Positions 1,386 to 12,377 of a DNA stretch of 12,453 bases are shown here, piece after piece. The stretch is from the UHGV virus genome UHGV-0283832; one strand, 5' to 3'. The position numbers and the translations under genes are program-made. A model generated the notes under the pieces. That model ran no database searches. It was not told the origin of the DNA and saw only the letters and a list, made by a program, of their open reading frames with translations. The stretch comes from a virus. Within the stretch, counting starts at the first letter, position 1. Every line of letters begins with the position of its first letter.

Positions 1386-1399
1386 TGGTCGCACGAGAG
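1386..1399. repeat. Island left junction: degenerate direct repeat of the tRNA-Pro 3' end (att core remnant)
   Basis: TGGTCGCACGAGAG here versus TGGTCGGCACGAGAG at 12301-12315 (1-nt deletion). Homology stops right after CACGAGAG. Confidence 0.55.
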
Positions 1400-1460
1400 T
1401 AGTTTAATTTAGCGTGTAACCGCATGATTTTAATAAATATTATTGATTCAACTTTTAAAC

Positions 1461-1485
1461 CGTATAACCAAACGTATAACTAAAA
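1461..1485. repeat. Integrase arm-type binding-site repeats (CGTATAAC), left arm
   Basis: CGTATAACCAAACGTATAACTAAAA here; nearly the same string CGTATAACTAAACGTATAACTAAAA occurs at ~12146-12170 beside the integrase gene, together with two inverted copies (AGTTATACG). Confidence 0.5.
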
Positions 1486-1626
1486 TAATTTGCTGAAAAA
1501 ATGCACAATTTAAACGGCGATTGCCCTAGCGACTTCCATGATTCTACCTGGATTTTTTTTCGCTCATTCGTTTTTAAGCTGGTGGATGTTCCCCGATATG
1601 GTGATCACCATATCGGGATTTACTCC

Positions 1627-1874
1627 AGGTTAATGTTAACCTCTGCCCTGTTAACATTTTTACCAAAAAGGTAGTTAACATTTTTTGCTCGCAACCAGAT
1701 GAATCATAAAGACAAAATCAACAACAACGCTTCATCAGGCAGTTAACATGTTAACTACTACGAAACGGTAATTTTTTCTCTGCGTGAGAGGGGGCGCGGT
1801 GTCCAGCTTATTCGTTGTTCGTGGCTAACCACTCCCCCCCCATGCCGGATTTTTTTTCCGGTTAACTGTTAATC
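1627..1874. promoter_or_regulatory. Cluster of GTTAAC-containing palindromes and repeats
   Basis: AGGTTAA-TG-TTAACCT palindrome at 1627-1642; GTTAACATTTTT direct repeats at ~1650 and ~1674; perfect 16-bp palindrome AGTTAACATGTTAACT at 1741-1756; GTTAACTGTTAATC at ~1861-1874. Confidence 0.3.
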
Positions 1875-2123
1875 AGGCTGGTGGGTTTTACCTGTTCTGT
1901 AGGAGTGGTCATTATGGCCATCCCTTATATCGTCCGAATGCCGGACGAAGGCACACATCAACCGTAACGAAAATCGTTATGGTTGCCTTGATGGTCTGCG
2001 TGGTCATTATGACCATTCAGACAATGACCTTAATCAGAATTTTTCGCTAAAAAATGACGTTGACCACGTCGTCCGGAAAACACAAAATCCCGTCGATTTT
2101 TAATTAACGGTTAAACCGTCTTT

Positions 2124-2159
2124 TGTCACGGCGTGTCACTGGCTGTCACTCTCCGTCAC
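2124..2159. repeat. Four helically phased direct repeats of TGTCAC at 10-bp spacing
   Basis: TGTCAC at ~2124, 2134 and 2144, and GTCAC at ~2155, giving exact 10-bp periodicity. An ACGGTT-A-AACCGT palindrome lies just upstream at ~2107-2119. Confidence 0.35.
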
Positions 2160-2247
2160 GATTGGGCGTGGTGATTATCACCATTTAGAATCTAAAGGGT
2201 GACGCTTCCGGCCTCCTCAAATTGAGGTTTCCGAAAATATCAACCAG

Positions 2248-2430
2248 TTACCGCCGCAACCGCTCCGGCTTCTTCCAGTGGTACGTTATTTTCTCCTTCT
2301 CCCGATACATCTCAACGCGGCGACGGTAGGCCAGCAACTCAAGAACTCTGGTTCGTATGTTGCGCATATCCACGCCATTAAGCTGGATACCATCACGGCG
2401 GATTAATCCCAGTATTTCGGCTTCTGTCAT
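2248..2430 (-). CDS. Hypothetical small protein (60 aa), basic C-terminus
   Basis: ATG start with a G-rich Shine-Dalgarno (GGGGG about 5 nt upstream). Protein MTEAEILGLIRRDGIQLNGVDMRNIRTRVLELLAYRRRVEMYREKEKITYHWKKPERLRR. It sits directly beyond the cosQ side of cos copy A. No family recognised. Confidence 0.45.
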   Translation of the reverse strand: MTEAEILGLIRRDGIQLNGVDMRNIRTRVLELLAYRRRVEMYREKEKITYHWKKPERLRR

Positions 2431-2458
2431 TGTGCCCCCATCGCTCTGATAGTCTGGT

Positions 2459-2529
2459 GTCGTCGGGTCCTTCCTGGAATTATGGCCCGTTACGGGGCGG
2501 CGACCTCGCGGTTTTTCGCTATTTATGAG
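2459..2529 (+). other. Lambda-type cos site, copy A (cosQ-like, cosN, start of cosB)
   Basis: GGGTCCTTCC...GTTACG|GGGCGGCGACCT|CGCGGTTTTTCGCTATTTATGA. This is near-identical to the phage lambda cohesive-end region as I recall it (right end ...GGGTCCTTTCCGGTGATCCGACAGGTTACG, 12-nt cohesive end GGGCGGCGACCT, left end CGCGGGTTTTCGCTATTTATGAAAA). cosN is at ~2495-2506. Confidence 0.7.
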
Positions 2530-2543
2530 CTTTTTTAGAGGGA

Positions 2544-2701
2544 GGTTGTTGTTTAATTGTTTGTCATATCCATTTGATAACTAAGTAAAAATAAAGAGCA
2601 ATACAACAACCTGATAGTGTTTTTTTGATGCTAAAAATAAAAAAATGCTAATTGAATCAAATAGTTTTAAAAAAATACGTGGTTGTTGTATTGCGTATTT
2701 G
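2544..2701. repeat. cosB-like terminase-binding repeat triad (GGTTGTTGT...) with an A-tract-rich spacer
   Basis: GGTTGTTGTTTAATTG at ~2544; inverted CAATACAACAACC at ~2599-2611; direct GGTTGTTGTATTG at ~2681-2693. A-tract-rich DNA with a weak IHF-like AATCAAatagTTT lies between copies 2 and 3. The layout mirrors lambda cosB (R3-I1-R2-R1), but the repeat sequence differs from lambda R sites. Confidence 0.45.
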
Positions 2702-2723
2702 ATGGCGTAACAGAAAGTGATTT

Positions 2724-3164
2724 TTAACTTTGCTGTTCTGTAACGACTGATTGTTCCATGCTGGCACGGCGAACGCTTACGGCATGACGCCACCCAGCCA
2801 GAAAGCCAGCCATTTTATTTCGTGCCTTGCTCACATCTTCCGGTGAATAGCCGTAAATCTGCAAACCTTCATCAAATCGATGTTCTGTTTCTTCACTGGA
2901 GTACTCGTCACGCTCAGATGAAAGCAGCCTGGCAAACATAATTTTTTCCAGCGCACTGGTTTCTACGTGATATCTGATGGCCTCAAGACGGCTTTTACCT
3001 GAAGACCAAAGCAATGTATGCCCGATGTGATAACCGCCAGACTTTCCGCGATCCGCATTAAGATACGGCATCCCCTGTTTGGTCCATGCGCGAATAGTGG
3101 TTCTGTTAACCTTGAAATGTTCAGCTATTTCCTGCTGACTTACAAAACAAGCTTTATCAATCAT
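2724..3164 (-). CDS. Lambda Nu1-like (terminase small subunit N-terminal HTH) DNA-binding protein; candidate packaging-specificity / helper-packaging redirection factor
   Basis: N-terminus VSQQEIAEHFKVNRTTIRAWTKQGMPYLNADRGKSGG aligns with lambda gpNu1 NKKQLADIFGASIRTIQNWQEQGMPVLRGGGKG. ATG with AAGGT Shine-Dalgarno. At 146 aa it is shorter than Nu1 and no large terminase follows. Cos copy B lies immediately upstream, as cos lies before Nu1 in lambda. Confidence 0.75.
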   Translation of the reverse strand: MIDKACFVSQQEIAEHFKVNRTTIRAWTKQGMPYLNADRGKSGGYHIGHTLLWSSGKSRLEAIRYHVETSALEKIMFARLLSSERDEYSSEETEHRFDEGLQIYGYSPEDVSKARNKMAGFLAGWRHAVSVRRASMEQSVVTEQQS

Positions 3165-3221
3165 AATGTTACCTTAACTGCATGGTTAAATATTAATCAA
3201 GTGGTGGTGGTGTCACCTTCA

Positions 3222-3297
3222 CGGAAAAACGTCATAAATAGCGAAAACCCGCGAGGTCGCCGCCCCGTAACGGGTCCATATGCCGGAAAGGACCCGT
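3222..3297 (-). other. Lambda-type cos site, copy B (inverted relative to copy A)
   Basis: Reverse complement reads ACGGGTCCTTTCCGGCATATGGACCCGTTACG|GGGCGGCGACCT|CGCGGGTTTTCGCTATTTATGA. cosN reverse complement (AGGTCGCCGCCC) is at ~3254-3265. About 65 bp is near-identical to copy A in inverted orientation. Confidence 0.65.
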
Positions 3298-3325
3298 AAA
3301 AAAAGCCGGATTTCTCCGGCCTTAT
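3298..3325 (-). terminator. Rho-independent terminator of the morphogenesis operon
   Basis: On the minus strand: stem GCCGGA / TCCGGC with a 4-nt loop followed by a T-run, immediately after the stop of the 137-aa gene. Confidence 0.6.
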
Positions 3326-3326
3326 G

Positions 3327-3740
3327 TCAGATGGTTTTCAGTATGCGATCGACGTCGCCTTCATCGCCCTGGTTTCTGCCGTCGTATGCCATGCCGGGTG
3401 ATACGGCTTTCGGGCTGTGCATGTCCATAAAGTTTTCAAAGGCTGCGGTAAGCTCCGGCGCAACCTTTGGGCGCTCCTGCTCTATGGTCATGTTCAGGAT
3501 TTCACGAGCATTATCGACGCTAATACATGGCACGTTTGCCATTGCACGTAACAGCGGCTGATAGTCGTTATGTTCATGAAGCGCCATAATCGCATCAGCG
3601 CGCGGCTTGTCCTGCTCTTCCAGTTTGTTGAGTTGATATACGGCCTCGTAGGTTGATAAACCTCTGTCAGCCATTGCCCGCGCTTCTGCTTTAAATTTAC
3701 TCGCCAGCGGTAGCGCCATGATGCTTTCATTCGTTGCCAT
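3327..3740 (-). CDS. Hypothetical acidic protein (137 aa), last gene of the capsid operon
   Basis: ATG with GGGGA Shine-Dalgarno 4-5 nt upstream and natural composition (MATNESIMALPLASKFKAEARAMADRG...). The competing 99-aa ORF 3494-3793 in another frame is R/W-rich and rejected. No family recognised. Confidence 0.6.
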   Translation of the reverse strand: MATNESIMALPLASKFKAEARAMADRGLSTYEAVYQLNKLEEQDKPRADAIMALHEHNDYQPLLRAMANVPCISVDNAREILNMTIEQERPKVAPELTAAFENFMDMHSPKAVSPGMAYDGRNQGDEGDVDRILKTI

Positions 3741-3752
3741 CGTTTCCCCTGC

Positions 3753-4040
3753 TTATCGCGCCAGCGGCTGAACGGATACGCCAGAACCCGCAAAGGCGGC
3801 GCATTTTTTCGCGTCAGTGTCGGCGCTCTCAGGCCAGTTTACGGCGGCGATATTAAATATCCCCGTCTTGTAACACTGTGCTGATTTCTGCTTTGACGTG
3901 TCCACGGGGTACGAGGTCAGATAAACAGCCTTCCCAGATTCCTGACCATCCCACGGCTTAAACTCGCCATTGTCCGCCAGCATCAGCGGCAAAATGTACC
4001 AGCGTCGTGGATACCTGCTGACTGCCTGCAAATAACTCAA
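3753..4040 (-). CDS. Hypothetical protein, start uncertain (TTG at 4040 or ATG at ~3983)
   Basis: ORF fills the gap between the capsid gene and the 137-aa gene. Its stop overlaps the Shine-Dalgarno of the downstream gene, suggesting operon coupling. No convincing Shine-Dalgarno for either start. Confidence 0.35.
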   Translation of the reverse strand: MSYLQAVSRYPRRWYILPLMLADNGEFKPWDGQESGKAVYLTSYPVDTSKQKSAQCYKTGIFNIAAVNWPESADTDAKKCAAFAGSGVSVQPLAR

Positions 4041-4067
4041 TGTATGGAGTGTCCATAGAATCCCCCG

Positions 4068-5123
4068 TTAAGCAATTTTGACGGTAACAAATTTGCGAAT
4101 ATCTGCCGGAACCGGCTGCGGTGCGCTGTGCGTCTGCACGTACTCAATCGCCGGATCGCCGTCCTCAATCCAGTTTTTCGGGTAGTACATGTTTTGCGTT
4201 GCGCCTGTTCTTACCGCTTCCTGATCCATAATCGCACCATAGGCCACCAGCCCTTTGTTGTTGGTGTTGCCCAGGACCAGTAAATCAGGCTCAAGGAAAT
4301 ATTTTTCTGTGCCGTCGCTGTCGGCGTATTTGCCGGCATAGACGATAAGGGCAATATCGCCCAGATAGCCTTTAAAGCTCACCACTTCGCCCAGGTTTTT
4401 ACAGGCCAGTTCTGCGGCGGATTCTGAACCACGGGAAAGATCGTACAGCTCACGGAATTTTTTAAAGCTGCGTAACGTGCGCCATACCTCAACGCCCATA
4501 ATCATGACGTTTGCGGGGCAACCAGCCTGATCAGCATAAAGCTCGATGTCATAGATTGGATCGTGTGTTTCCTTATCTGCCTCTGACCACTTTTTACCCG
4601 GTCCCTGTCTGGCGATATTTTTACTTGGGATCTTCCAGTCGATTTCATAGCGTTCTATGCCTTCGCCCTCAATGATGTTTTTTCCGGTCGTTATCGCATT
4701 CACCGCCAGCCATTCCACGCGCGCTTTAATGGCGTTTATCTGGCGGCGCATGTTGCCAGTAATCAGGCGCATACGGCGGTAGGTAGGGTCGTTAAGCTGT
4801 GCCGGATCTTCTCCAGCCATGCGCATTATTGTTTTTAATGGATCGATTTCGTGTTTTGGCTTCATGTAGCCAGGGCGAATAATGCTGGTTTCGTACCCTT
4901 TATCGCGCTGAACCTGGCTACCAACCATAGGCGAACAAAACGCCGACATAGTGACTTCTTCAATATCCAGGTTATCTAACATGATGTCCTGTGTGTTGAA
5001 TGTCGCCACGTTCGGGAAAAACAGCGCGGTAAACAGCGGACTAAATTTAAATTCCGCAATATCCTCGCGATTCAGGTACGCGAAAAGCTGGTGTGTGTTA
5101 AGTGCCATTGCGTTGACTGCCAT
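4068..5123 (-). CDS. Major capsid protein, lambda gpE-like (HK97 fold)
   Basis: 351 aa with collinear motifs matching lambda gpE across the whole length: FKFSPLF, PGYMKPKHE, EDPAQLNDPTYRRMR, WSEADKETHDP, DIELYA, RSFKKF, RGSESA, KNLGEVVSFKGYLGDIALIVYAGKY, FLEPDLLVLGNT, YPKNWIEDGDPAIEY, QTHSAP. Start overlaps the upstream ORF stop (TAATG). Confidence 0.85.
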   Translation of the reverse strand: MAVNAMALNTHQLFAYLNREDIAEFKFSPLFTALFFPNVATFNTQDIMLDNLDIEEVTMSAFCSPMVGSQVQRDKGYETSIIRPGYMKPKHEIDPLKTIMRMAGEDPAQLNDPTYRRMRLITGNMRRQINAIKARVEWLAVNAITTGKNIIEGEGIERYEIDWKIPSKNIARQGPGKKWSEADKETHDPIYDIELYADQAGCPANVMIMGVEVWRTLRSFKKFRELYDLSRGSESAAELACKNLGEVVSFKGYLGDIALIVYAGKYADSDGTEKYFLEPDLLVLGNTNNKGLVAYGAIMDQEAVRTGATQNMYYPKNWIEDGDPAIEYVQTHSAPQPVPADIRKFVTVKIA

Positions 5124-5329
5124 TATTCACCCCCATGAGTCTGATTTATGCCCAGCGCCGCGCGTAAATAGGAGCGTACCTGCCAGCCTGTTGACGGCTC
5201 AACCATCGCCAGCGGATCAAGTCCTGCCGCAATGCCTGCTTTTACGTTCTGCTGGTGGCGTTCCTTGAGCGCCTTCACGATGTCGGGGCTTATGTACACC
5301 GAAACACCGCCTTTTCTCTCTTCAGCCAT
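5123..5329 (-). CDS. Hypothetical small protein (68 aa), first gene of the capsid operon
   Basis: ATG with AGAGGA Shine-Dalgarno; translationally coupled to the capsid gene. No family recognised; not similar to lambda gpD or Nu3 as far as I can recall. Confidence 0.5.
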   Translation of the reverse strand: MAEERKGGVSVYISPDIVKALKERHQQNVKAGIAAGLDPLAMVEPSTGWQVRSYLRAALGINQTHGGE

Positions 5330-5364
5330 AGTAAGAAATTCCTCTTCGACTTAAAAAATCATAA

Positions 5365-5413
5365 CTGGATGTTCATCCAGCTCTGATTATAATCAGGATT
5401 GCATTTTGTGCAA
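5365..5413 (-). promoter_or_regulatory. Candidate sigma70 promoter with overlapping palindromic operators for the capsid operon
   Basis: Minus strand reads TTGCAC - 16 nt - TATAAT. The -10 lies inside the perfect 14-bp palindrome CTGATTATAATCAG (~5383-5396). CTGGATG-TT-CATCCAG (~5365-5380) lies at about +1, and TTGCA-ttttg-TGCAA at ~5399-5413. Confidence 0.35.
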
Positions 5414-5493
5414 TGATATTGAGTTACATTGCAAATTATGAAATGATTATCCCGATCATGTGTGTCAGTGCACCAAAAAACCTCATATGCAAA

Positions 5494-5531
5494 AGCCCGA
5501 TAAGCCACCTCTGACCTTATCGGGCTTTTTT
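5494..5531. terminator. Stem-loop terminator (10-bp stem GCCCGATAAG / CTTATCGGGC followed by T7)
   Basis: Long perfect stem followed by TTTTTTT on the plus strand and flanked by an A-run on the other side. Probably insulates the capsid promoter from the replication operon. Confidence 0.5.
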
Positions 5532-5537
5532 TGGGCG

Positions 5538-5559
5538 CAAAAAAGCCGGATTGCTCCGG
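5538..5559 (-). terminator. Rho-independent terminator of the replication operon
   Basis: Minus strand: GCCGGA-GCAA-TCCGGC followed by TTTTTT, about 25 nt after the PerC-like stop. Confidence 0.55.
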
Positions 5560-5583
5560 CTGTGTGGTGTGGTTCTGGTATTC

Positions 5584-5832
5584 CTACTCTGCTAATTTGC
5601 TCAGCCCCATGTCTGCGTAAGTGCGATTTACTGCATTTCTCAGGTCTGCATAGTTCTCCGTTGGCGGCTCCGGTGGCCTCTGTGCCTTCCTGGAACATTC
5701 CAGCCGTCGCATCGTAACCTGATGCCGTTCCTTGTCTGTCTCCACCAGTTGCATGACTTCACCCCATCGTGCCGCCGCCCTCCGGTAAAAGCCTTTTGCC
5801 TCTAGTTCCTCCGCTATGCGGTCATGTACCAT
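5584..5832 (-). CDS. PerC-family transcriptional regulator-like protein
   Basis: Taken from the internal ATG (MVHDRIAEELEAKGFYRRAAARWGEVMQ...) with GGTGAGG Shine-Dalgarno. The AE-LE-KG-YRRAA-RW signature resembles PerC/Pch-type regulators. The track ORF extends further 5' to 5952, but that part overlaps the SSB gene. Confidence 0.55.
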   Translation of the reverse strand: MVHDRIAEELEAKGFYRRAAARWGEVMQLVETDKERHQVTMRRLECSRKAQRPPEPPTENYADLRNAVNRTYADMGLSKLAE

Positions 5833-5842
5833 CCTCACCCCC

Positions 5843-6253
5843 TCAGAACGGAATATCATCACCGTAAGGGTCATCGCCTCCCGCTGGTGGCTGATTACCC
5901 TGTGTGCCTGTGGTTTTGCGTCTGTTCCCGCCAGGACGTGCCGCACGGGCACTGATTACGCTGTCTGCAATAACCTGATAACCCTGCCGCGTTTCCCCGT
6001 TCTGTCCGGTCCACTGGCTGACCTGCATCGTGCCGGATACGCTGGCAACGTCGCCTTTTTGATGTTTAGCCAGGAAGTCGGCCTGCTTACCAAATGCGAT
6101 GACCGATAGCCATAACGTCGCCTGCCCATCCTGCGCCTGACTACATGGCAACGATACCGCCATACGCGCCAGCGTCATCGGTGTGCCCTTGCTGGTCTGT
6201 TTTACCTGCGGGTCGTCCACCAGCCGCCCGTAAGCGGCTATCTGTGCTGTCAT
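5843..6253 (-). CDS. ssb: Single-stranded DNA-binding protein (short SSB)
   Basis: OB-fold-like N-terminal region (IAAYGRLVDDPQV...LARMAVSL...LWLSVIAFGKQADFLAKHQKGDVASVSGTMQVSQWTGQNGETRQGYQVIADSV), Gly/Pro-rich linker and the canonical acidic tail ending DDIPF. ATGA overlap with the upstream ORF. Confidence 0.8.
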   Translation of the reverse strand: MTAQIAAYGRLVDDPQVKQTSKGTPMTLARMAVSLPCSQAQDGQATLWLSVIAFGKQADFLAKHQKGDVASVSGTMQVSQWTGQNGETRQGYQVIADSVISARAARPGGNRRKTTGTQGNQPPAGGDDPYGDDIPF

Positions 6254-6528
6254 GATTCCACCTCTCCGGTTTTAACGTTGATGGTTGTTACCTGTTCCGC
6301 TTCGGCAATCTCCCGCTCTGTCAGCGTGGCAAAATTTGCCGCCGTCGTGGTCATGAATGCGCTTATCAGTTCGGGATGTGCTTTCGCGTATCCTTCCCCC
6401 GCGTGGCGGTCTATCGTTCTGATTGCCACCTTTAAAGCGTGCTCTGTCATGTCTAACGCGCGATATTTCGGTTCTGTTCTGTCTCTGCGTTTTTTGAGTG
6501 ATTTATTAAATTTCCCTGAAGTGTGCAT
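6250..6528 (-). CDS. Hypothetical protein (92 aa) between the iteron origin and ssb
   Basis: ATG with a G-rich Shine-Dalgarno about 14 nt upstream; translationally coupled to ssb. No family recognised. Confidence 0.5.
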   Translation of the reverse strand: MHTSGKFNKSLKKRRDRTEPKYRALDMTEHALKVAIRTIDRHAGEGYAKAHPELISAFMTTTAANFATLTEREIAEAEQVTTINVKTGEVES

Positions 6529-6585
6529 ATTTATTTTTACCCCCTCGTTTAAAAAGTTTTGAGTTGTGCCTCCCCTTGTCTACCT

Positions 6586-6816: not shown

Positions 6817-8571
6817 TTATAAAAACGCGTCGCACTCGTCTGTTGTTATTGCGTTAGTCTGCGTTACCCCCTTAACTTTCCGCGTAATATATTCATGTCC
6901 GTAAACTTTTGCGGCAGGCTTCATAGCCTTTCCAAAGTCATTTACGTTTAGCGGTTTGCTCCTGCCTGCGTATGCCATAAACGCCAGATAGACGCGGTAA
7001 AGGCTGTTCCTGGTCGTGTACTTCACTGAATCGCCACCGCCCCCCATCATCAGGCCGCGCGCTTCCTCCAGAAAATTCAGGAACTGGCAAAACTCAATAA
7101 CCGGATCCGTCTGTTGCTTTATTGCCAGTGCTTCATCACCGTCACGCTGTTCCAGTAGTAAAGCCCGTGCCTTCTCAGGGGCGGTAAAGTTCGCCAGCAA
7201 TCGGCGGATAATGACAGGGATTTCAGCCGCAATCTTTTCCGGTAGCTCCCTGTCTTTTTCGGCCTCACTGACGATATTGTCGAAACGGAAAATTACGCGA
7301 CGACGTGACACACCTCCGGCCCGTTCGGTGAATATCATCGGATTGTTATTGGTTGCCAGCACCACCGCCCTGATTACCGCCGTAAAACGCTTTTCATATT
7401 TCGGGTTAATTTCCACGGGGTCGCCGCCCGTGATTTTCTTGATGCCCGTTCCTTCGCCTGTATATTTCGGCTGGTCAGCCAGGACGATAAGACGACTCCC
7501 GACAACCTGCGCACGTCCACCAGCATCATCAAGCGATGTCATTTCAGCGCTTACCGTGTTCTGTTTCCCTGCCAGAAGGCTGGCTATGTGCGTGAATGTA
7601 CTTTTACCGCTCCCGCCATCTCCGGTGGCCTCAATAAACATCTGCCAGTCGTACCGGTTCGCCATAATCATGTACAGCGCGGCACATATACGCATCATCT
7701 TGCGCGGGTCTTTTCCGGCTGCGTGCTCAAGCCATTTATGAAAGTTTGGCGCGTTATCGCGGATGTTCTCCCCTGGTGCTGGTGGCGTGTACTCAATGCC
7801 GTTGTGCGTGGTGATCCAGCTCTCCGGCGTGTGCGGGGAAAATTCCCCCGTTTTCAGGTCAAGCGCACCATTGGCGAACGGCAGCAAATCGCCGGACGGC
7901 TCGCCCATTGGTTCGGCAATAACTTTTAACGCTTCCACGGCGTTATTGATTACGCGCTTGCTGAAAGTGGCCCTGTGCTCTGAATAGATCGCCACCATTT
8001 CGCGGCTAAGTTCCATTGTGCTGACCGGACACCATACCCCGCCGCGCCATACGTGAACGATTTCACTTTCAGGATGTACGCAAACGCCATCAAAGCGATC
8101 GGCAAGCAGCTGCGCGCGCTCACTGTCCGCCATCTGCGAAAGTTGCGCCTTTTGCTTTACCGGAAGCTCAATGACCAGACCATCAGAAAGATTCTGGCGC
8201 TCACGGGCCAGATATTCGCGCCAGTTCTCCACCTTCTGACCGTGCATACCCTCAGGATAAAAATTTGCATCCTGTACGCCTGCCGCCGCCAGCTTCTGAC
8301 CAATCGCCTTTATCATTACTGGCGCAAGATATCCGGCCCTGAATATGCGCACGGATTTTCTGCCTTCCGGCACAATTTGCAGCTTATCCAGTTCGGATAA
8401 CTGCTGCTCCCCAAGCCACACAGGAGGCTCATTATCTCCGGCCATACGCGCGTCATGTTCCTGCCATTGTTTTGCGTGTGACCAGGCATCACTACCCGCA
8501 AAAATAATGACTTCTGTTTCTTTGTGTTTTATGCCGCGTGACTGCTGTTTTACGTTCGGTGCCAGTTTCAT
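6817..8571 (-). CDS. Replication initiator: P4-family primase / helicase-type NTPase (pri-rep)
   Basis: 584 aa. Walker A GDGGSGKST (encoded at ~7596-7630) with the surrounding FIEATGDGGSGKSTFTHIASLLAG typical of the phage/plasmid P4-family primase C-terminal NTPase domain. An N-terminal ~300 aa domain precedes it. ATGA overlap with the upstream ORF; followed by the iteron array. Confidence 0.85.
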   Translation of the reverse strand: MKLAPNVKQQSRGIKHKETEVIIFAGSDAWSHAKQWQEHDARMAGDNEPPVWLGEQQLSELDKLQIVPEGRKSVRIFRAGYLAPVMIKAIGQKLAAAGVQDANFYPEGMHGQKVENWREYLARERQNLSDGLVIELPVKQKAQLSQMADSERAQLLADRFDGVCVHPESEIVHVWRGGVWCPVSTMELSREMVAIYSEHRATFSKRVINNAVEALKVIAEPMGEPSGDLLPFANGALDLKTGEFSPHTPESWITTHNGIEYTPPAPGENIRDNAPNFHKWLEHAAGKDPRKMMRICAALYMIMANRYDWQMFIEATGDGGSGKSTFTHIASLLAGKQNTVSAEMTSLDDAGGRAQVVGSRLIVLADQPKYTGEGTGIKKITGGDPVEINPKYEKRFTAVIRAVVLATNNNPMIFTERAGGVSRRRVIFRFDNIVSEAEKDRELPEKIAAEIPVIIRRLLANFTAPEKARALLLEQRDGDEALAIKQQTDPVIEFCQFLNFLEEARGLMMGGGGDSVKYTTRNSLYRVYLAFMAYAGRSKPLNVNDFGKAMKPAAKVYGHEYITRKVKGVTQTNAITTDECDAFL

Positions 8572-8855
8572 TTTTTACCCCCTGCGACCAGCATTTCACG
8601 AATTTTGCGGATATGACTTGCTGCACGTTTCTGATTTACGGCTTTACGATGGCCCACCAGCGTGAAATCACGCCGGAACTGATAAACAGGCATCACGCAG
8701 TCATATTCGTAGCCATCACGGCGGTAAGTGATGCGCCGTTCTGCCACGCCTTTTATCGTTACCGTGCCGCCATAGTTATCCCGGAAAATATCGCCGGGGC
8801 GGATTTCAGGCTGAGAGAAGTCACTGGCAGTAAAGCCAGAATTTTTCTTTTTCAT
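8568..8855 (-). CDS. Hypothetical protein (95 aa), translationally coupled to the primase
   Basis: ATG start with AGGAAA upstream; stop overlaps the primase start (ATGA). No family recognised. Confidence 0.55.
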   Translation of the reverse strand: MKKKNSGFTASDFSQPEIRPGDIFRDNYGGTVTIKGVAERRITYRRDGYEYDCVMPVYQFRRDFTLVGHRKAVNQKRAASHIRKIREMLVAGGKK

Positions 8856-8860
8856 GGTTT

Positions 8861-9061
8861 TTATTTTCCTGTCAGTGATTCAAGTTTTATTCCGGCACGA
8901 ATACAGGCCTCAGAAAAAAAAGCCAGAGAACCAACAACCTCATTATTTCTAAGGCGGCATTGTGATTTCACTTTCCCTTTATCGAGAAATATCAAAACGC
9001 GTCCCGTATAATCTGACGGCACATTAAGAACTACAGGTAAGTGCGCTTCATAATTGTGCAT
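8861..9061 (-). CDS. Hypothetical small protein (66 aa)
   Basis: ATG with GGGGG Shine-Dalgarno about 8 nt upstream. Start lies within the last 14 nt of the upstream 69-aa gene and the stop is 5 nt before the next ATG, consistent with a tightly coupled operon. Could still be spurious. Confidence 0.35.
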   Translation of the reverse strand: MHNYEAHLPVVLNVPSDYTGRVLIFLDKGKVKSQCRLRNNEVVGSLAFFSEACIRAGIKLESLTGK

Positions 9062-9257
9062 GGTGCGCCCCCTGACGAATACGGGCGGCGAATACCATCA
9101 CGCAGCCATCAGGAGATTGCTGACGCGCTTCCTGTTCGCTGGTGGCCTCAATGGTAATCACGCGCGGTTGTGCCGTGCTCAGGGCGATAAAACGCCAGAT
9201 GTATTTATTCAGGTTGTACGAGTCCCGCCCTTGCGGGTGTATGGTATAATTTCTCAT
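9048..9257 (-). CDS. Small protein (69 aa), possibly Icd-like (host cell division inhibitor-like)
   Basis: Internal ATG of the long track ORF 9048-10124, with GAGG Shine-Dalgarno 5 nt upstream. Protein MRNYTIHPQGRDSYNLNKYIWRFIALSTAQPRVITIEATSEQEARQQSPDGCVMVFAARIRQGAHHAQL. The Icd-like call rests on a vague memory of similar small proteins in P4-like islands, so it is weak. Confidence 0.4.
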   Translation of the reverse strand: MRNYTIHPQGRDSYNLNKYIWRFIALSTAQPRVITIEATSEQEARQQSPDGCVMVFAARIRQGAHHAQL

Positions 9258-9346
9258 AGCTGCCTCGATAATCTTGCTATCGTTGGTGGTTAGAAGCCCC
9301 GTTACTGCTCCTACAGTGCGGGGTTTCGTCGTTTCTGCACCTTGCA

Positions 9347-9440
9347 TTAACAAGGTGTAAGTAACTTTATTTATAGGTGGCTTACATGTCAATGCTTTTA
9401 TGTAAGACTTTTTATGTGTATATTGTCTTACACTTTCATT
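9347..9440. promoter_or_regulatory. Divergent promoter/operator region between the replication operon and the plus-strand cassette
   Basis: Palindrome CACCTTG-cattaa-CAAGGTG at ~9347-9366; inverted repeat CTTACAT ... ATGTAAG at ~9391-9417 and a further CTTACA copy at ~9436; TATATT -10-like element at ~9429-9434. Confidence 0.35.
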
Positions 9441-9453
9441 GAGAGGATTACAG

Positions 9454-9759
9454 ATGGCTACAGGTTCAAAAAACGCAAAATCACAATCACTGACAGCTCG
9501 GATCCCGCATGATGTTATTGAAGGCATGGAATCCGTAAAACTGGACGGTGAAAGCAACGCCGGATTCATAGTAACCGCCATGCGCGGTGAAATCGCCCGC
9601 CGCCAGGCAGAAGGAAGCGGAGAAAACCCCCTGATTTCTTCGCTCGATGCACTGGCGCAGGTGGAAAAACTCGGAATCAAAGCCGCCGAGGAGATCGGGC
9701 AGCTCGTCACTGTCGCACGTGAAGAACTCCAGCGCCGCAAGACCAAAGAACCAGAGTAA
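9454..9759 (+). CDS. Ribbon-helix-helix-like small DNA-binding protein (101 aa)
   Basis: ATG at 9454 with GAGAGGA Shine-Dalgarno 6 nt upstream (the track ORF starts earlier at a TTG). The N-terminal segment SLTARIPHDVIEGMESVK fits the strand-helix pattern of RHH (CopG/Arc/ParD-like) proteins; the C-terminal half is helical and charged. The RHH call is pattern-based only. Confidence 0.55.
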   Translation: MATGSKNAKSQSLTARIPHDVIEGMESVKLDGESNAGFIVTAMRGEIARRQAEGSGENPLISSLDALAQVEKLGIKAAEEIGQLVTVAREELQRRKTKEPE

Positions 9760-9816
9760 TCACCATCAGCGCCGTGGTGTAAGGTATTACGGCGCATTGC
9801 TATGCAGGACAACACA

Positions 9817-9990
9817 ATGACCGATAAAGAATTGACCAAAACATTATCACCGGCACGGAAAAGACGGCGCAGAAAGATAGAGCATGAATCAGAAAGATTC
9901 GCGCCATGTGCTTTTGCCCTTGAGCAATTCCTTAAAGAATACAGGGAAAAGCGCTCATTGCAGGTATGGCAACGAACTGAACCAGACTGA
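9817..9990 (+). CDS. Hypothetical highly basic mini-protein (57 aa)
   Basis: ATG at 9817 with AGGA Shine-Dalgarno 7 nt upstream (the track ORF starts at an earlier ATG at 9802 that lacks one). Protein MTDKELTKTLSPARKRRRRKIEHESERFAPCAFALEQFLKEYREKRSLQVWQRTEPD. Followed by a plus-strand terminator. Confidence 0.45.
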   Translation: MTDKELTKTLSPARKRRRRKIEHESERFAPCAFALEQFLKEYREKRSLQVWQRTEPD

Positions 9991-10085
9991 TTGCATTGCC
10001 CACCAGCCTGATAGCGGCTATCATCCCCGTGCTTATGTTTGGGATCATATACACATAAGGCGCAGCGGGTTAATTGTTCAGAAAG

Positions 10086-10112
10086 GCGGCTCCATATCGG
10101 GGCCGCTTTTTT
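10086..10112 (+). terminator. Rho-independent terminator of the plus-strand cassette
   Basis: GC-rich stem (GCGGC ... GCCGC) followed by TTTTTT about 100 nt after the 57-aa ORF stop. Confidence 0.5.
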
Positions 10113-10138
10113 CGTGTTTGTCATATCTGTGATACCCG

Positions 10139-10345
10139 TTAAGCAGCCGTTCCGCGTGCTTCCTGTTCGCGTTCTTTCTGCCAGGCCAACACATCATCCT
10201 CATACCATCCGCGACGGCGTAAACCAACGCGAAAACCCTGCGGAAATTCTCCGGCGTTGATCATGCTTTGCAGCGTGCTGTCTGCCTTGATGTGGATAAT
10301 TTTTTTTACTTCCTGGCGAAAGATAATTTTTCTGATTGCTTCCAT
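10139..10345 (-). CDS. alpA: AlpA-family excisionase / transcriptional regulator
   Basis: 68 aa, ATG with AAGGT Shine-Dalgarno. The C-terminal FPQGFRVGLRRRGWYEDDVLAWQ matches the AlpA/Xis-like winged-helix signature (FP-P-KLG-R--GW---E---W). Confidence 0.8.
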   Translation of the reverse strand: MEAIRKIIFRQEVKKIIHIKADSTLQSMINAGEFPQGFRVGLRRRGWYEDDVLAWQKEREQEARGTAA

Positions 10346-10363
10346 CGTGATTTACCTTGTGAA

Positions 10364-10448
10364 TCCGGTGTATTCCGGTGACAAATACGGTAAATCATCG
10401 GATATGGGTAAAAACAGTTCCCACCGTTTTTAAACGGTATACACCGTT
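10364..10448 (-). promoter_or_regulatory. alpA leader/promoter with CACCGGA direct repeats and ACCGTTT/AAACGGT palindromes
   Basis: On the sense strand, two CACCGGA(A/T) repeats 10 bp apart lie immediately upstream of the alpA Shine-Dalgarno (~10364-10380). Overlapping palindromes ACCGTTT-TT-AAACGGT-ATAC-ACCGTTT lie at ~10423-10448. Confidence 0.35.
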
Positions 10449-10475
10449 TTTATATTGATGATTTGAAATGGAATT

Positions 10476-10500
10476 ATAAAAAAAGCGGCATTTCTGCCGC
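10476..10500 (-). terminator. Rho-independent terminator after the 83-aa ORF
   Basis: Minus strand: GCGGCA-GAAA-TGCCGC followed by a run of T (plus-strand A-run at ~10475-10484). Confidence 0.6.
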
Positions 10501-10511
10501 TTCCAGGATTG

Positions 10512-10763
10512 TTACCGCCATTTTTTGGGCCTGCCTCCGATCTTCATAGATGCCGGACGTACGACCTTATCAATACTTACCGCCAGATTTCTGGAAGCGC
10601 CACGGGATACCAGAAAATCTACTACCTGTTTTTTTGATGGGGCCGTCGTTCTGTCCTCCGGATCGTAGGTTGACCAAAATTCATGCTGAACCATCAGGGC
10701 CAGTTGCAGCCCGTCGCAATTGCATCTGATATTTTTTTGCATCTTAACGGTTTCATGTTTCAC
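10512..10763 (-). CDS. Hypothetical small protein between int and alpA (83 aa from GTG, or 76 aa from the ATG at 10742)
   Basis: Track start is GTG; an in-frame ATG follows 7 codons later. C-terminus KIGGRPKKWR resembles an AT-hook-like GRP motif. Neither start has a strong Shine-Dalgarno. No family recognised. Confidence 0.45.
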   Translation of the reverse strand: MKHETVKMQKNIRCNCDGLQLALMVQHEFWSTYDPEDRTTAPSKKQVVDFLVSRGASRNLAVSIDKVVRPASMKIGGRPKKWR

Positions 10764-10840
10764 GGCCTTGTCGTTAAATTTGATGCAATTATACGACGGT
10801 TTTACATGGTTTTCGTAGTTTTTACTGGTTTTCTGTACAG

Positions 10841-12082
10841 CTACACGGCTCGGATACCCCTTTTACCACTGGCGAGGGTTACGCCCGTCGCCGCAGCCTC
10901 GACAAATTCGCCCCACCAGCGCATCAGCACGATGCGTTTTTCTATGTAGTTGCTCCGGTTGTATGCCCGTCTAACTTCGTTGGTGTCGACGTGGGCAAGT
11001 GCCGCCTCTATTACGTCCGGCTCGAATCCTTCCTCGTTCGCTGCTGTGCTGAATATGGCGCGTAATCCATGAGACACCAGCACGCCAGCGAATCCCATAC
11101 GCCGCAATGCTGCGTTAGCTGTCTGGCTGTTCATCGGCTGCTGTGGGTCTTTCAGACTTGGGAAAACGTAATTGCGGTGGTGGCTGATTGGTTTCATGGC
11201 CTCCAGCACCGCCATAGCCTGACCGGAAAGCGGGATAACGTGATCCCTGCGCATCTTCATGCGTCCGGCAGGTATCGTACATTGCTTCGCGTCCAGGTTG
11301 ATTTCATCCCACCGCGTTGATGACGCTTCGGCGGGACGGGTTACGGTCAGTAACTGCCATTCAATCAGTAATCTGGTCTGCCGTTCTGTTGCCGATACTG
11401 ATAAAGCCTGCATAAGCTCCGGCAGCTGTTCGGGGCGGATTGTTGGCATATGTTTTTTTACAGGTGAGGGAAACGCCTTACGCACATTCATAGCCGGATT
11501 GGCATCAATCAGCCCACTGTTGGCGGCGTAATCCATTACCTCATTAACGCGCTGTAAAACCCGCTTGAGTGTTTCCAGGTTGCCGCGCTCCTTGATGGGT
11601 GTAAGCACTTCAACGAACCTTCGGGCGGTGAGGGTATCTATTGGCGTGTTGCCGATGAACGGGAATACATATTTATCCAGCGAACGCCAGATGTCTTTAA
11701 TCGTGTTGGGGGCCAGATTCTGGCTGATTTTCACCTGGTACCATGCCGCCGCCACATTTTCGAACGTGTTCCCTTGTCTTCGGGCCTCTGTCTCTCTTTT
11801 TTGCCTCTCGTGGTCCTGCGGGTCAGTTCCGGCACTGATTAACGTCCTGTACTCGCTACGGCGTTTTCTGGCATCAGCCAGGGAAACATCTTCAAGCGAT
11901 CCAAAACTCAGCAATATTCTTTTTTTGTCCGATGGTCGGTAGTAGGAAAATCTCCAGAGTTTTGATCCAGACGGTTTGACCAGGAGAAAAAGCCCTCCGC
12001 CGTCCTGCAGGGTGTACTCCTTTTGCGCTGGTCTGGCTGCTTTGATCTGCACTGTGGTTAATGGGTGTGTTTTTCTCGCCAT
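10841..12082 (-). CDS. int: Tyrosine recombinase / integrase, P4-type (with N-terminal arm-binding domain)
   Basis: Track ORF starts at a GTG (12100); the likely start is the ATG 6 codons in (MARKTHPLTTVQIKAARPAQKEYTLQDGGGLFLLVKPSGSKLWRFSYY...), a typical N-terminus for P4-like integrases. Length ~413 aa. Sits adjacent to the tRNA 3' end and arm-type repeats. Confidence 0.9.
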   Translation of the reverse strand: MARKTHPLTTVQIKAARPAQKEYTLQDGGGLFLLVKPSGSKLWRFSYYRPSDKKRILLSFGSLEDVSLADARKRRSEYRTLISAGTDPQDHERQKRETEARRQGNTFENVAAAWYQVKISQNLAPNTIKDIWRSLDKYVFPFIGNTPIDTLTARRFVEVLTPIKERGNLETLKRVLQRVNEVMDYAANSGLIDANPAMNVRKAFPSPVKKHMPTIRPEQLPELMQALSVSATERQTRLLIEWQLLTVTRPAEASSTRWDEINLDAKQCTIPAGRMKMRRDHVIPLSGQAMAVLEAMKPISHHRNYVFPSLKDPQQPMNSQTANAALRRMGFAGVLVSHGLRAIFSTAANEEGFEPDVIEAALAHVDTNEVRRAYNRSNYIEKRIVLMRWWGEFVEAAATGVTLASGKRGIRAV

Positions 12083-12117
12083 ATGTCTATGATTCCACAC
12101 GAAAAAACAGGGGTTTA

Positions 12118-12170
12118 GTTATACGGCTTTAGTTATACGTCAGCCCGTATAACTAAACGTATAACTAAAA
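12118..12170. repeat. Integrase arm-type binding sites (right arm)
   Basis: Two AGTTATACG copies (~12118, ~12131) followed by two inverted CGTATAACTAAA copies (~12146, ~12158). The same 9-mers occur at 1461-1485 in the left arm. Confidence 0.5.
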
Positions 12171-12294
12171 AATCCGGCTGATAGCTTATAAATCCGGTGA
12201 TGTTCGGTGACTAAAAAACATAAAAAAACCCGCCAATCAAGTGATTAGCGGGTTATCCCTGTCTTATCCGGTGCTTTCCGGTGATATCCGGTGG
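12171..12294. repeat. Phased TCCGGTG(A) direct repeats next to the att core (candidate excisionase/AlpA sites)
   Basis: Six copies: ~12171 (variant TCCGGCTGA), ~12193, ~12203 (variant TTCGGTGA), ~12266, ~12277 and ~12287, mostly at 10-11 bp spacing. The same heptamer occurs twice in the alpA leader (~10364-10380). Confidence 0.45.
12222..12254 (-). terminator. Island-supplied terminator downstream of the tRNA
   Basis: Near-palindromic hairpin AACCCGCCAATCAAGTGATTAGCGGGTT preceded on the plus strand by AAAAAAA (a T-run on the minus strand), about 45 nt downstream of the tRNA 3' end. Confidence 0.5.
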
Positions 12295-12300
12295 GCGATT

Positions 12301-12377
12301 TGGTCGGCACGAGAGGATTTGAACCTCCGACCCCCGACACCCCATGACGGTGCGCTACCAGGCTGCGCTACGTGCCG
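12301..12377 (-). tRNA. proL: tRNA-Pro (anticodon GGG)
   Basis: Reverse complement reads CGGCACGTAGCGCAGCCTGGTAGCGCACCGTCATGGGGTGTCGGGGGTCGGAGGTTCAAATCCTCTCGTGCCGACCA: 77 nt, cloverleaf-compatible, anticodon loop T-GGG-GT, encoded CCA. It matches the E. coli proL-type tRNA as I recall it. Confidence 0.9.

What the first reader, a model, noticed from the sequence alone, without database searches (positions are those of the whole stretch)
1386..12377. Island boundaries and integration at the tRNA-Pro(GGG) 3' end
The intact tRNA (12301-12377) is followed by the integrase arm sites and int, and a degenerate copy of the last ~15 nt of the tRNA occurs at 1386-1399 next to what looks like the native bidirectional terminator. 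This defines an ~10.9-kb insertion and identifies the displaced original tRNA 3' end. The element regenerates the tRNA 3' end and supplies a replacement terminator.
Basis: partly seen in the sequence, partly recalled or inferred. Interest (0 to 1): 0.45.

Follow-up and report, generated by a model that had tools for sequence, protein, structure and literature searches.

The report
Phage satellite inserted in proL tRNA

Summary
tRNA-Pro(GGG) lies at 12301-12377 (-). A 14-nt copy of its 3' end, missing one G, lies at 1386-1399. E. coli K-12 joins the two flanks as one tRNA plus terminator. The insert is 10,916 bp.

It is a cos-type PICI of the EcCICFT073/EcCI042 kind. It has a P4/CP4-57-type integrase, AlpA, a D5/P4-type primase, SSB, PerC, lambda gpE/gpD homologues, an Rpp-like gene and two inverted lambda-type cosN sites. 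Six arm-type sites and phased TCCGGTG repeats frame the att site. The element supplies the last 7 nt of the working tRNA and a new terminator.

The new result concerns the far-end copy. In 47 of 47 junctions read, and in about 97% of 333 E. coli genomes, the displaced host end lacks 1-13 nt. The deletion always abuts CACGAGAG. Salmonella and E. albertii show the same.

- An attP-type junction has the intact 17-nt core.
- Intact integrated junctions are rare, and six of eleven lie in one remnant with a truncated int.
- Empty proL sites carrying the same deletions exist, so excision can leave a damaged tRNA gene.

I infer that the integrase generates these deletions after integration. That is not shown.

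The parts
1075..1284 (+). Host flank: 3' end of the yejO autotransporter gene. yejO is a remnant here, as in E. coli Nissle.
   Evidence: Annotation of matching E. coli loci; alignment to K-12; window 1-1510 is collinear with Nissle at 97.7%.
1294..1327 (+). Host hairpin downstream of yejO.
   Evidence: Folds at -21.3 kcal/mol, z = -5.7; present in K-12.
1347..1379 (.). Native two-way terminator of proL and yejO (CCAACC..GGTTGG flanked by an A run and a T run), now separated from the tRNA.
   Evidence: Folds at -15.8 kcal/mol, z = -4.05; directly follows proL in K-12.
1386..1391 (+). Displaced host copy of the tRNA 3' end, TGGTCG. It lacks 1 nt of TGGTCGG (the -1 deletion).
1392..1399 (+). Far-end copy of the crossover segment CACGAGAG.
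   Evidence: This is the only identity left between the two junctions to the right of the deletion. Deleted empty sites show that exchange occurs here. A secondary-site junction agrees.
1400..1484 (+). P' arm of the att site, with two arm-type integrase sites (1461-1472 and 1473-1484).
   Evidence: conserved in relatives.
1632..1806 (.). Non-coding stretch about 79% identical to the HNH-to-small-terminase intergenic region of Stx and YYZ-2008-type phages. Possibly a second kind of cos region.
2464..2535 (+). Arm 1 of a 72-nt inverted repeat. Holds an exact lambda cosN, GGGCGGCGACCTCG, at 2495-2508.
2724..3164 (-). 146-aa protein with a helix-turn-helix like the N-terminus of a small terminase. 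Rpp-like candidate. It lies in a cassette between the two cos copies.
   Evidence: Pfam HTH hits are weak; phrog_57 small terminase, E = 4e-8; the cassette is exchanged among relatives.
3225..3296 (-). Arm 2 of the inverted repeat. Holds the second exact cosN at 3252-3265.
3327..3740 (-). 137-aa protein of phrog_1999, with weak similarity to the C-terminal part of head-maturation protease/scaffold fusions.
3753..4056 (-). Homologue of the lambda gpD head decoration protein, frameshifted by a 32-nt deletion between CGCCAGCATCAGCGG repeats. Pseudogene.
   Evidence: Pfam HDPD; alignment to L001.
4068..5123 (-). Homologue of the lambda gpE major capsid protein, 351 aa, intact.
   Evidence: PF03864, E = 1.4e-48.
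5584..5952 (-). PerC-family regulator.
   Evidence: PF06069, E = 2e-35.
5843..6253 (-). Single-strand DNA-binding protein.
   Evidence: PF00436.
6817..8571 (-). D5/P4-type primase-helicase (the Pri-Rep replication protein).
   Evidence: PF08706, PF19263 and PF03288.
8568..8855 (-). DUF4222 protein.
9048..10124 (-). 358-aa protein. The N-terminal 265 aa have no family match; the C-terminal 90 aa match phrog_6196 'transcriptional repressor'.
10139..10345 (-). AlpA-like excisionase/regulator.
   Evidence: PF05930 is weak; phrog_66 and phrog_2790 'excisionase and transcriptional regulator'.
10364..10380 (+). Two TCCGGTG repeats 10 nt apart, just upstream of alpA.
10841..12082 (-). Tyrosine integrase with an Arm-DNA-bind_3 N-terminal domain, 413 aa, intact.
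   Evidence: PF00589, PF22022 and PF13356; 100% identical protein cluster P0001.
12114..12169 (.). P arm: four arm-type sites CGTATAACTAAA, two inverted and two direct.
12193..12293 (+). Five TYCGGTG repeats in 10-nt phase (12193, 12203, 12267, 12277, 12287). Candidate AlpA/Xis sites between the arm sites and the core.
   Evidence: 13 matches against 3.0 expected, 0 of 200 shuffles.
12227..12254 (-). Element-borne replacement terminator for proL.
   Evidence: 12-pair stem plus T run; -31 kcal/mol, z = -3.8; a hairpin is conserved in relatives.
12301..12307 (-). Last 7 nt of the working tRNA (CCGACCA on the tRNA strand), supplied by the element.
   Evidence: Lies on the P-arm side of the crossover segment.
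12308..12315 (+). tRNA-proximal copy of the crossover segment CACGAGAG.
12301..12377 (-). Intact hybrid tRNA-Pro(GGG) gene, proL.
   Evidence: identical to K-12 proL.

Best explanation
The window holds a 10.9-kb helper-dependent phage satellite, a cos-type PICI of the EcCICFT073/EcCI042 kind. A P4/CP4-57-type tyrosine integrase inserted it into the 3' end of proL. attP and attB share TTTGGTCGGCACGAGAG, and strand exchange takes place in CACGAGAG. After integration the working tRNA consists of the host body plus the element's CCGACCA end and the element's terminator. The host's own 3' end stays with its native terminator at the far junction.

That displaced end is then shortened. In nearly all related insertions, 1 to about 13 nt are missing. 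The deletion always starts at the base next to CACGAGAG and runs into the host side. The window has the 1-nt version.

The most likely source (inferred) is error-prone processing of integrase cleavage at that boundary after integration.

One consequence is shown. Excision from a deleted junction returns a proL gene with a damaged acceptor stem. In such strains the only good proL 3' end is the one the element carries.
For: **Shown**
- The empty site in K-12 and in 3784 of 5426 genomes.
- Integrase domains, six arm sites and phased TCCGGTG repeats at alpA and in the P arm.
- The replacement terminator.
- PICI gene set and two exact cosN sites. These match the published description of EcCICFT073/EcCI042 (PMC6092414, PMC6739421). 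E. coli 042 carries a relative at this same site.
- An attP-type junction (int, arm sites, terminator, GATTTGGTCGGCACGAGAG, TAGTTTAATT) with an intact core in metagenome contig L024.
- Far junctions: 47 of 47 read carry a deletion, in 13 forms and 41 combinations of host haplotype, deletion and P' arm. All keep CACGAGAG. Eighteen of these were sampled without requiring CACGAGAG.
- Whole collection: 333 genomes carry one of seven junction forms. An evenly spaced sample of 60 gave 2 intact, 6 with -1, 17 with -2, 27 with -4 and 8 with -5.
- Eleven intact junctions exist. Six are a 1.4-kb remnant with a truncated int.
- Strain GN02050 has the Nissle element at 99.78% identity with an intact junction. 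The single gap between them is Nissle's 2-nt deletion.
- Empty proL sites with -1, -2 and -4 deletions score lower as tRNAs: 54.9 bits intact against 41.1, 38.9 and 51.1. ARAGORN misses the -2 form.
- The same boundary-anchored deletions occur in Salmonella (-2, -4, -5) and in an E. coli sub-lineage whose integrase is 82% identical (-1).
Against: - No experiment links the deletions to integrase activity.
- The int-truncated remnant with an intact junction is one clade, so it counts as a single event.
- GN02050 has an intact int and an intact junction, so a deletion is not obligatory.
- Some deletion sizes (-1, -4, -5) can be explained by slippage on G or GG microhomology.
- Conservative tyrosine recombination does not by itself remove bases.
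- The one secondary-site junction has its 1-nt deletion inside the crossover segment, not at its left edge.
- Many genomes are clonal, so 97% overstates the number of independent events.
- Orthologous islands in Klebsiella, Pectobacterium and Dickeya showed no recognisable far-end fragment within 10 kb.
Confidence: 0.8

Rival explanations
1. Neutral decay. The far-end copy is an unselected relic that has picked up a random 1-nt deletion.
For: The displaced fragment has no known function. A single-base loss in a GG run is a common mutation.
Against: About 97% of 333 genomes, and 47 of 47 junctions read, carry a deletion at the same boundary. The adjacent host terminator and the P' arm are nearly unchanged. 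The same host haplotype with the same P' arm carries -1, -5 and -10. Salmonella shows the same pattern.
Confidence: 0.04
2. Selection without integrase mutagenesis. Ordinary mutations that weaken the host-side core site are favoured because they stop spontaneous excision and loss. Deletions that enter CACGAGAG are not seen because such elements can no longer spread.
For: PICIs of this kind excise spontaneously (PMC6092414). Deleted elements are diverse and evidently still move (41 combinations). Deleted empty sites show that excision still occurs.
Against: The mutational target in int and alpA is over 100 times larger than this 7-10 nt, yet int is intact in most loci examined. No junction has only a substitution, or only a deletion further from the boundary. 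Immobilised dead ends with a damaged CACGAGAG should still appear in vertical lineages, and none appeared among the 18 unbiased junctions.
Confidence: 0.2
3. The deletions are made at excision (imprecise excision) and stay in the host attB. Later PICIs integrate into already damaged sites and restore the tRNA.
For: Deleted empty sites exist. The element's P arm restores the tRNA whatever the state of the host end.
Against: At least 5 true empty sites carry a deletion, and 14 genomes match a deleted form in all, against 3784 intact ones. Yet about 97% of occupied sites carry one. This would need a strong preference for rare damaged sites, or strong counter-selection of damaged empty sites.
Confidence: 0.15
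4. The deletion belongs to the element. attP variants lack these bases, and the crossover lies to the left of them.
For: For -1 to -3, enough identity (TTTGGTC) remains on the left for a 7-bp overlap.
Against: The -6 and -10 forms leave no identity on the left. The deletion stays in the chromosome after excision. The one attP-type junction is intact. Deletion size varies within a single P' arm type.
Confidence: 0.03

Closest known systems
EcCI042 and EcCICFT073, Gram-negative cos-type PICIs (Fillol-Salom et al. 2018, PMC6092414; 2019, PMC6739421)
   Same: One-directional gene order: int, alpA, DUF4222 plus D5/P4-type primase, SSB, PerC, capsid (c1499-like) and decoration (c1500-like) homologues, then a small-terminase-like Rpp gene. 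Two cos sites with lambda-type cosN. Size near the 12-15 kb class. E. coli 042 carries a relative at this very site.
   Different: The window's element is a mosaic. Its int-alpA end is 99.7% identical to Nissle's, but its Rpp cassette and left end differ. Its decoration gene is frameshifted. It carries an extra stretch resembling the cos region of HNH-type Stx phages. The boundary-anchored deletions are not mentioned in the papers read.
P4 / CP4-57 integrase with AlpA, and tRNA-3'-end islands in general (Islander/TIGER framework, PMC4383910, PMC10111431)
   Same: Integrase with an Arm-DNA-bind_3 domain placed next to the tRNA 3' end. The island restores the tRNA and leaves a displaced fragment at the far end. 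AlpA-type excisionase. Use of a secondary site resembling attB.
   Different: None of the P4 hallmark genes (sid, psu, delta, epsilon) was detected. In the usual picture the two repeats are identical; here the far one is almost always shortened.
Lambda-type intasome: arm-type sites, Xis sites and a 7-8 bp overlap
   Same: Four arm-type sites on the P side and two on the P' side. Phased repeats between the arm sites and the core, where lambda has its Xis sites. An 8-bp segment in which exchange occurs.
   Different: Binding of Int and AlpA to these motifs is inferred from position and repetition only.
Short deletions made by type IB topoisomerase after abortive cleavage (yeast Top1; recalled from the literature, not checked here)
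   Same: The same 3'-phosphotyrosyl chemistry. The deletions are a few bases long, one-sided, and anchored at the cleavage position.
   Different: An analogy only. No such activity is documented for a phage-type integrase in what I read.

Membership tests
Gram-negative PICI (criteria of Fillol-Salom 2018) | Integrase at one end, with an AlpA-type regulator and a Pri-Rep replication module, all transcribed in one direction. | tested here: met
   int 10841-12082, alpA 10139-10345 and primase 6817-8571 are all on the minus strand.
Gram-negative PICI (criteria of Fillol-Salom 2018) | Size about 12-15 kb, with no full set of phage structural and lysis genes. | tested here: met
   The insert is 10.9 kb, slightly below the range. 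Only gpE-like and gpD-like genes and a scaffold-like protein are present; no portal, large terminase, tail or lysis genes were found.
Gram-negative PICI (criteria of Fillol-Salom 2018) | cos site(s) resembling those of the helper phage, plus an Rpp (small-terminase-like) protein. | tested here: inconclusive
   Two exact lambda cosN 14-mers are present. The Rpp assignment rests on a weak N-terminal match to small terminase and on position. It was not compared with RppA-C sequences.
Gram-negative PICI (criteria of Fillol-Salom 2018) | Induction, packaging and transfer by a helper phage, and interference with that phage. | not testable with these tools
   Needs experiments.
Gram-negative PICI (criteria of Fillol-Salom 2018) | An att site not used by prophages. 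| not tested
   Other island families use a different sublocation (the anticodon loop) of the same tRNA (L080, L108). Use of this 3'-end site by prophages was not surveyed.
tRNA-integrating genomic island (Islander definition) | An intact tRNA gene, an adjacent tyrosine integrase, a displaced tRNA fragment in direct orientation at the far end, and an uninterrupted site in relatives. | tested here: met
P4-like satellite | The genes sid, psu, delta and epsilon together with an alpha primase. | tested here: not met
   Pfam and PHROG scans found only a D5/P4-type primase and AlpA, and none of the capsid-size or Psu genes.
Capsid-forming PICI (cf-PICI) | A complete own capsid and packaging module: capsid, protease, portal, connectors, small terminase and HNH. 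| tested here: not met
   Only capsid and decoration homologues are present. No portal, protease or connector genes were found.

The most novel reading that the evidence does not exclude
The integrase of this proL-targeting PICI clade damages the host's displaced tRNA 3' end after integration. The deletions are nested, one-sided, and start at its cleavage position. Every established insertion therefore ends up holding the only functional 3' end of proL, and loss of the element leaves a broken tRNA gene. This would be an addiction-like hold on a host tRNA, and a natural footprint that maps the integrase cleavage site.
Probability: 0.4. Interest if true: 0.7.

Novelty: new member of a known kind. 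Interest (0 to 1): 0.45.

Why it matters
The island boundaries themselves are routine. They add one more mosaic member to a described satellite family at a known site.

The far-junction pattern is what could matter. Site-specific integration into tRNA genes is usually presented as fully reversible, with two identical repeats.

- Here the host copy is almost always shortened at one fixed boundary.
- Genomes exist in which the element has left and the tRNA gene is damaged.
- If the integrase causes this, it would be a new cost of carrying and losing satellites.
- It would also be a way for the element to make itself hard to lose.
- It would offer a sequence-only way to locate integrase cleavage sites.
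- Tools that define island ends by exact repeats would need to allow for it.

Tried and rejected
- An ungapped search for the 15-mer misses the left copy because of the indel. The terminator scanner misses the native hairpin because its stem extends into the T run. Folding settled it.
- Scans of genome contigs and metagenome contigs with CACGAGAGTAGTTTAATT returned many chance hits in unrelated bacteria, including one recurrent gut contig family. I discarded these.
- I first suspected that the fixed right end of the deletions was produced by that search pattern. A survey that did not require CACGAGAG gave the same result.
- I first believed no intact far junction existed. A direct search found 11. 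That query was badly designed: its first 28 nt also matched every normal attB. redid it properly.
- I thought the JNE141411 element next to a fimbrial gene had moved there from its deleted proL site. It is a secondary-site insertion in lpfD-O113, but a link to the proL deletion cannot be shown.
- I took 1400-2250 for the cos region. The exact cosN sites lie instead in the inverted repeat at 2464-3296.
- PADLOC found no defence system in the unknown ORFs.
- Integrase relatives down to 66% identity all sit at proL, so I could not test another att site.
- Klebsiella, Pectobacterium and Dickeya loci gave no readable far junction.
- Literature searches for proL/yejO islands and for imprecise excision at tRNA genes found the site described, but no account of the deletions.

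Full report
**1. The observation**

ARAGORN finds a single tRNA, tRNA-Pro(GGG), at 12301-12377 on the minus strand. On the + strand its 3' end reads TGGTCGGCACGAGAG at 12301-12315. At 1386-1399 the + strand reads TGGTCGCACGAGAG, the same string minus one G.

The 14-mer occurs once in the window, with 0.01 matches expected by chance. A 413-aa tyrosine integrase with Arm-DNA-bind_3, Phage_int_M and Phage_integrase domains lies at 10841-12082 (-), next to the tRNA 3' end. The motif CGTATAACYAAA occurs six times and nowhere else. Four copies lie between int and the tRNA (12114-12169) and two lie just inside the left end (1461-1484). The chance expectation is 0.13, and 0 of 200 shuffles reach six.

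**2. The empty site**

The window is E. coli DNA. The left flank is the 3' end of yejO, and the right flank runs towards yejM (lapC).

- In K-12 the yejO stop codon, two hairpins and the proL 3' end are contiguous.
- The window's left flank matches K-12 through 1399 and then diverges.
- The right flank matches K-12 from about 12298 onward.
- 3784 of 5426 complete E. coli genomes have the uninterrupted arrangement.
Three genomes hold it at full length, and fragments occur at up to eight places per genome.

The insert, measured between the two CACGAGAG copies, is 10,916 bp.

**3. Anatomy of the attachment site**

Metagenome contig L024 has the order int (N-terminal part), arm sites, hairpin terminator, GATTTGGTCGGCACGAGAG, TAGTTTAATT... 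This is an attP-type joint, from either an excised circle or a tandem junction. Comparison with attB gives a shared block, TTTGGTCGGCACGAGAG.

In the window, the P side runs as follows:
- four arm sites;
- a hairpin at 12227-12254 followed by a T run on the tRNA strand;
- five TYCGGTG repeats in 10-nt phase;
- the core.

Two more TCCGGTG repeats sit just upstream of alpA. By position these are candidate sites for the AlpA-type excisionase. That is inferred, not shown.

The native proL terminator (1347-1379) remains with the displaced end.

**4. What the island is**

All genes are on the minus strand. In order they are:
- int and an AlpA-like excisionase/regulator;
- a 358-aa protein whose last 90 aa match a phage repressor family;
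- DUF4222, a D5/P4-type primase-helicase and SSB;
- PerC;
- a lambda gpE-like capsid protein;
- a gpD-like decoration gene, frameshifted by a 32-nt deletion;
- a 137-aa scaffold-like protein;
- a 146-aa protein whose N-terminus resembles that of a small terminase.

The lambda cosN sequence GGGCGGCGACCTCG occurs exactly twice, at 2495-2508 (+) and 3252-3265 (-). These positions fall inside the two arms of a 72-nt inverted repeat that brackets the terminase-like gene.

This matches the published description of E. coli cos-type PICIs. They have AlpA, Pri-Rep, PerC, capsid c1499, decoration c1500, two cos sites, and Rpp, a small-terminase-like protein that redirects the helper's terminase (PMC6092414, PMC6739421). 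E. coli 042, the host of EcCI042, carries a relative at this same site.

The window's element is a mosaic. Region 9068-12453 is 99.7% identical to the Nissle 1917 element, while the left end and the Rpp cassette match other strains. It is not a P4-like satellite and not a capsid-forming PICI, because the defining genes of both are absent.

**5. The 'degenerate' copy is not random decay**

I read the far junction in 47 loci. These were the window, E. coli complete genomes, IMG/VR and metagenome contigs, and E. albertii.

- All 47 keep CACGAGAG followed by the P' arm.
- All 47 lack bases immediately to its left.
- There are 13 forms, from GGGATTTTTGGTCG (-1, as in the window) through GGTC (-2), GGT, GG, G and TTTTT down to GGGAT (-10). 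E. albertii has about -13.
- There are 41 different combinations of host haplotype, deletion and P' arm. One host haplotype with one P' type carries -1, -5 and -10.
- Eighteen of the 47 were sampled without requiring CACGAGAG, so the fixed right end is not produced by the search pattern.

A search of all 5426 genomes with the seven commonest forms found 333 genomes. An evenly spaced sample of 60 gave 2 intact, 6 with -1, 17 with -2, 27 with -4 and 8 with -5, so about 97% carry a deletion. Many of these genomes are clonal (O26, O111, ST73). The percentage therefore counts genomes, not independent events.

**6. What the exceptions show**

- Eleven genomes have the intact far junction. Six of them carry the same 1.4-kb remnant, in which int is truncated.
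- GN02050 carries the Nissle element at 99.78% identity over 12.8 kb, with an intact int and an intact junction. The only gap between the two is Nissle's 2-nt deletion. Integration can therefore be precise, and the deletion can arise afterwards.
- A search built so that only deleted but unoccupied sites could seed found 14 genomes. I fetched four. JNE141411 (-1), P15-385 (-2) and STEC384 (-4) have yejO, terminator, deleted tRNA and yejM contiguous. The fourth has the -1 deletion plus a different island in the anticodon loop.
- Rfam tRNA scores fall from 54.9 bits (K-12) to 41.1, 38.9 and 51.1 bits. ARAGORN misses the -2 form.

These sites join the deleted host side to the tRNA body. Exchange must therefore have happened to the right of the deletion, and the only identity left there is CACGAGAG. 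This locates the crossover segment. It also shows that the deletion lies in host-side DNA, not in the element.

**7. A secondary site**

In JNE141411 a PICI with the same P arm is inserted in lpfD-O113, at a sequence that resembles attB:
- lpfD site: ...TTATCCC CACGTTAG AGTTTGAAGTTACGACC
- attB: ...GGTCGG CACGAGAG GATTTGAACCTCCGACC

The int-side junction carries CACGAGAG. The far junction carries CACGTT-G, which is host-type at the two mismatched positions with one base lost. This fits exchange across this 8-bp segment followed by segregation of a heteroduplex. Again it is the far junction that carries the small deletion. This is a single case.

**8. Other genera**

Integrase relatives of 66-93% identity in E. 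coli, Salmonella, Klebsiella, Pectobacterium and Dickeya all sit next to yejM and tRNA-Pro.

- Salmonella far junctions read CTCTCGTG|GACCAAAA (-2), CTCTCGTG|CAAAA (-5) and, in L006, -4.
- An E. coli sub-lineage with an 82%-identical integrase and different arms has -1.
- In Klebsiella, Pectobacterium and Dickeya I found no far fragment within the 10 kb available.

**9. Mechanism: shown and inferred**

Shown:
- the site, the parts and the crossover segment;
- the near-universal one-sided deletion;
- the existence of precise junctions;
- the existence of deleted empty sites.

Inferred: neutral decay cannot concentrate deletions in 7-10 nt while the neighbouring DNA stays unchanged. Selection for stability alone should also produce int or alpA knock-outs, substitutions, and deletions further from the boundary. 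These are not what is seen.

A process tied to the boundary itself fits best. Tyrosine recombinases cut at the edges of the overlap and become linked to the 3' side. That is the side that loses bases here, while the 5'-OH side (CACGAGAG) is preserved. Type IB topoisomerases, which use the same chemistry, are known to make short one-sided deletions after abortive cleavage. I recall this from the literature and did not check it here.

I put about 0.4-0.5 on integrase-dependent deletion. Selection on ordinary mutations and imprecise excision are the main rivals. Whatever the cause, in strains with the deletion the element holds the only good proL 3' end.

proL is reported to be dispensable, because tRNA-Pro(UGG) reads all four proline codons (my own knowledge). 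The cost of losing it is therefore probably moderate.

**10. Novelty**

The island type, the site and the regeneration of the tRNA are known. The S. flexneri gtrIC region and E. coli 042 at tRNA-Pro/yejO are in the literature (PMC4924310; PMC6092414). The papers I could search and read do not describe the boundary-anchored deletions or the damaged empty sites. That is absence from this library, not proof of novelty.

**11. Limits**

- Non-independence of genomes.
- One attP-type contig and one secondary-site case.
- No test at another att site.
- No experiments.

Noticed in passing
window 2464-2535 and 3225-3296: A 72-nt inverted repeat (86% complementary). Each arm holds an exact lambda cosN 14-mer. 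The two arms bracket a cassette that carries different small-terminase-like genes in different strains: a 146-aa gene here and in AST198, a 180-aa 'terminase small subunit' in Nissle and MS 21-1. Two cos sites in inverted orientation around a swappable Rpp cassette.
   Followed up: partly
window 1632-1806: Non-coding DNA about 79% identical to the intergenic region between the HNH endonuclease and small terminase genes of phage YYZ-2008 and many Stx-converting phages. Possibly a cos region for a second class of helper phage.
   Followed up: partly
window 1905-2184 and 2120-2160: Three copies of GTGGTSATTATSRCCAT (palindromic cores at 1905, 2000 and 2168), four GTCAC repeats (about 2124-2160), and several GTTAAC sites at 1630-1760 and 1860-1875, all in an 850-bp stretch with no convincing ORF. 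Function unknown.
   Followed up: no
window 3753-4056 (deletion point near 3975): The gpD-like head decoration gene is frameshifted by a 32-nt deletion between two CGCCAGCATCAGCGG repeats. Relatives have an intact 111-aa protein.
   Followed up: yes
window 9048-10124: A 358-aa ORF in the variable region between alpA and DUF4222. Only its last 90 aa match a family (phrog_6196, 'transcriptional repressor'). The first 265 aa have no Pfam, PHROG or PADLOC match. Relatives have Icd-like, Ash and other small genes at this position.
   Followed up: partly
window 3299-3320, 5539-5560, 10479-10500: Three copies of AAAAAAGCSGSATTKCTSCSGC, hairpins with adjoining A/T runs. They lie between gene blocks and are probably internal terminators of the element.
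   Followed up: no
L080 (E. coli USMARC-50748) and L108 (Pectobacterium): A different island family is inserted in the anticodon-loop region of the same proL gene. In L080 the displaced 3' half still carries the PICI-type -1 deletion, so the two kinds of element have used this gene in succession.
   Followed up: partly
L083 (E. coli JNE141411), about 419 and 10315: A PICI with the proL-type P arm is inserted in the fimbrial gene lpfD-O113 at a sequence resembling attB. This splits the gene. About 10 of 1503 genomes with this gene have it interrupted.
   Followed up: partly
L113-L115 (Dickeya zeae), 11524-13795: The orthologous integrase at proL is followed there by a reverse transcriptase (RVT_1) and an AAA_21/ABC-type ATPase. 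This pair looks like a retron-type or Abi-type defence cargo rather than a PICI module.
   Followed up: no
window 1-1284: yejO is a remnant in this strain, as in Nissle 1917. The window is collinear with Nissle at 97.7% over 1-1510. Compared with strains that have the full 2.6-kb gene, it lacks about 1 kb of internal sequence.
   Followed up: partly
L078 (E. coli 2013C-3033) and L063 (IMG/VR): Homologous P' arms and arm-type sites occur next to other core sequences (near the tyrT/RtT locus, and at an unidentified site). The same arm architecture therefore appears to serve integrases with other targets.
   Followed up: no
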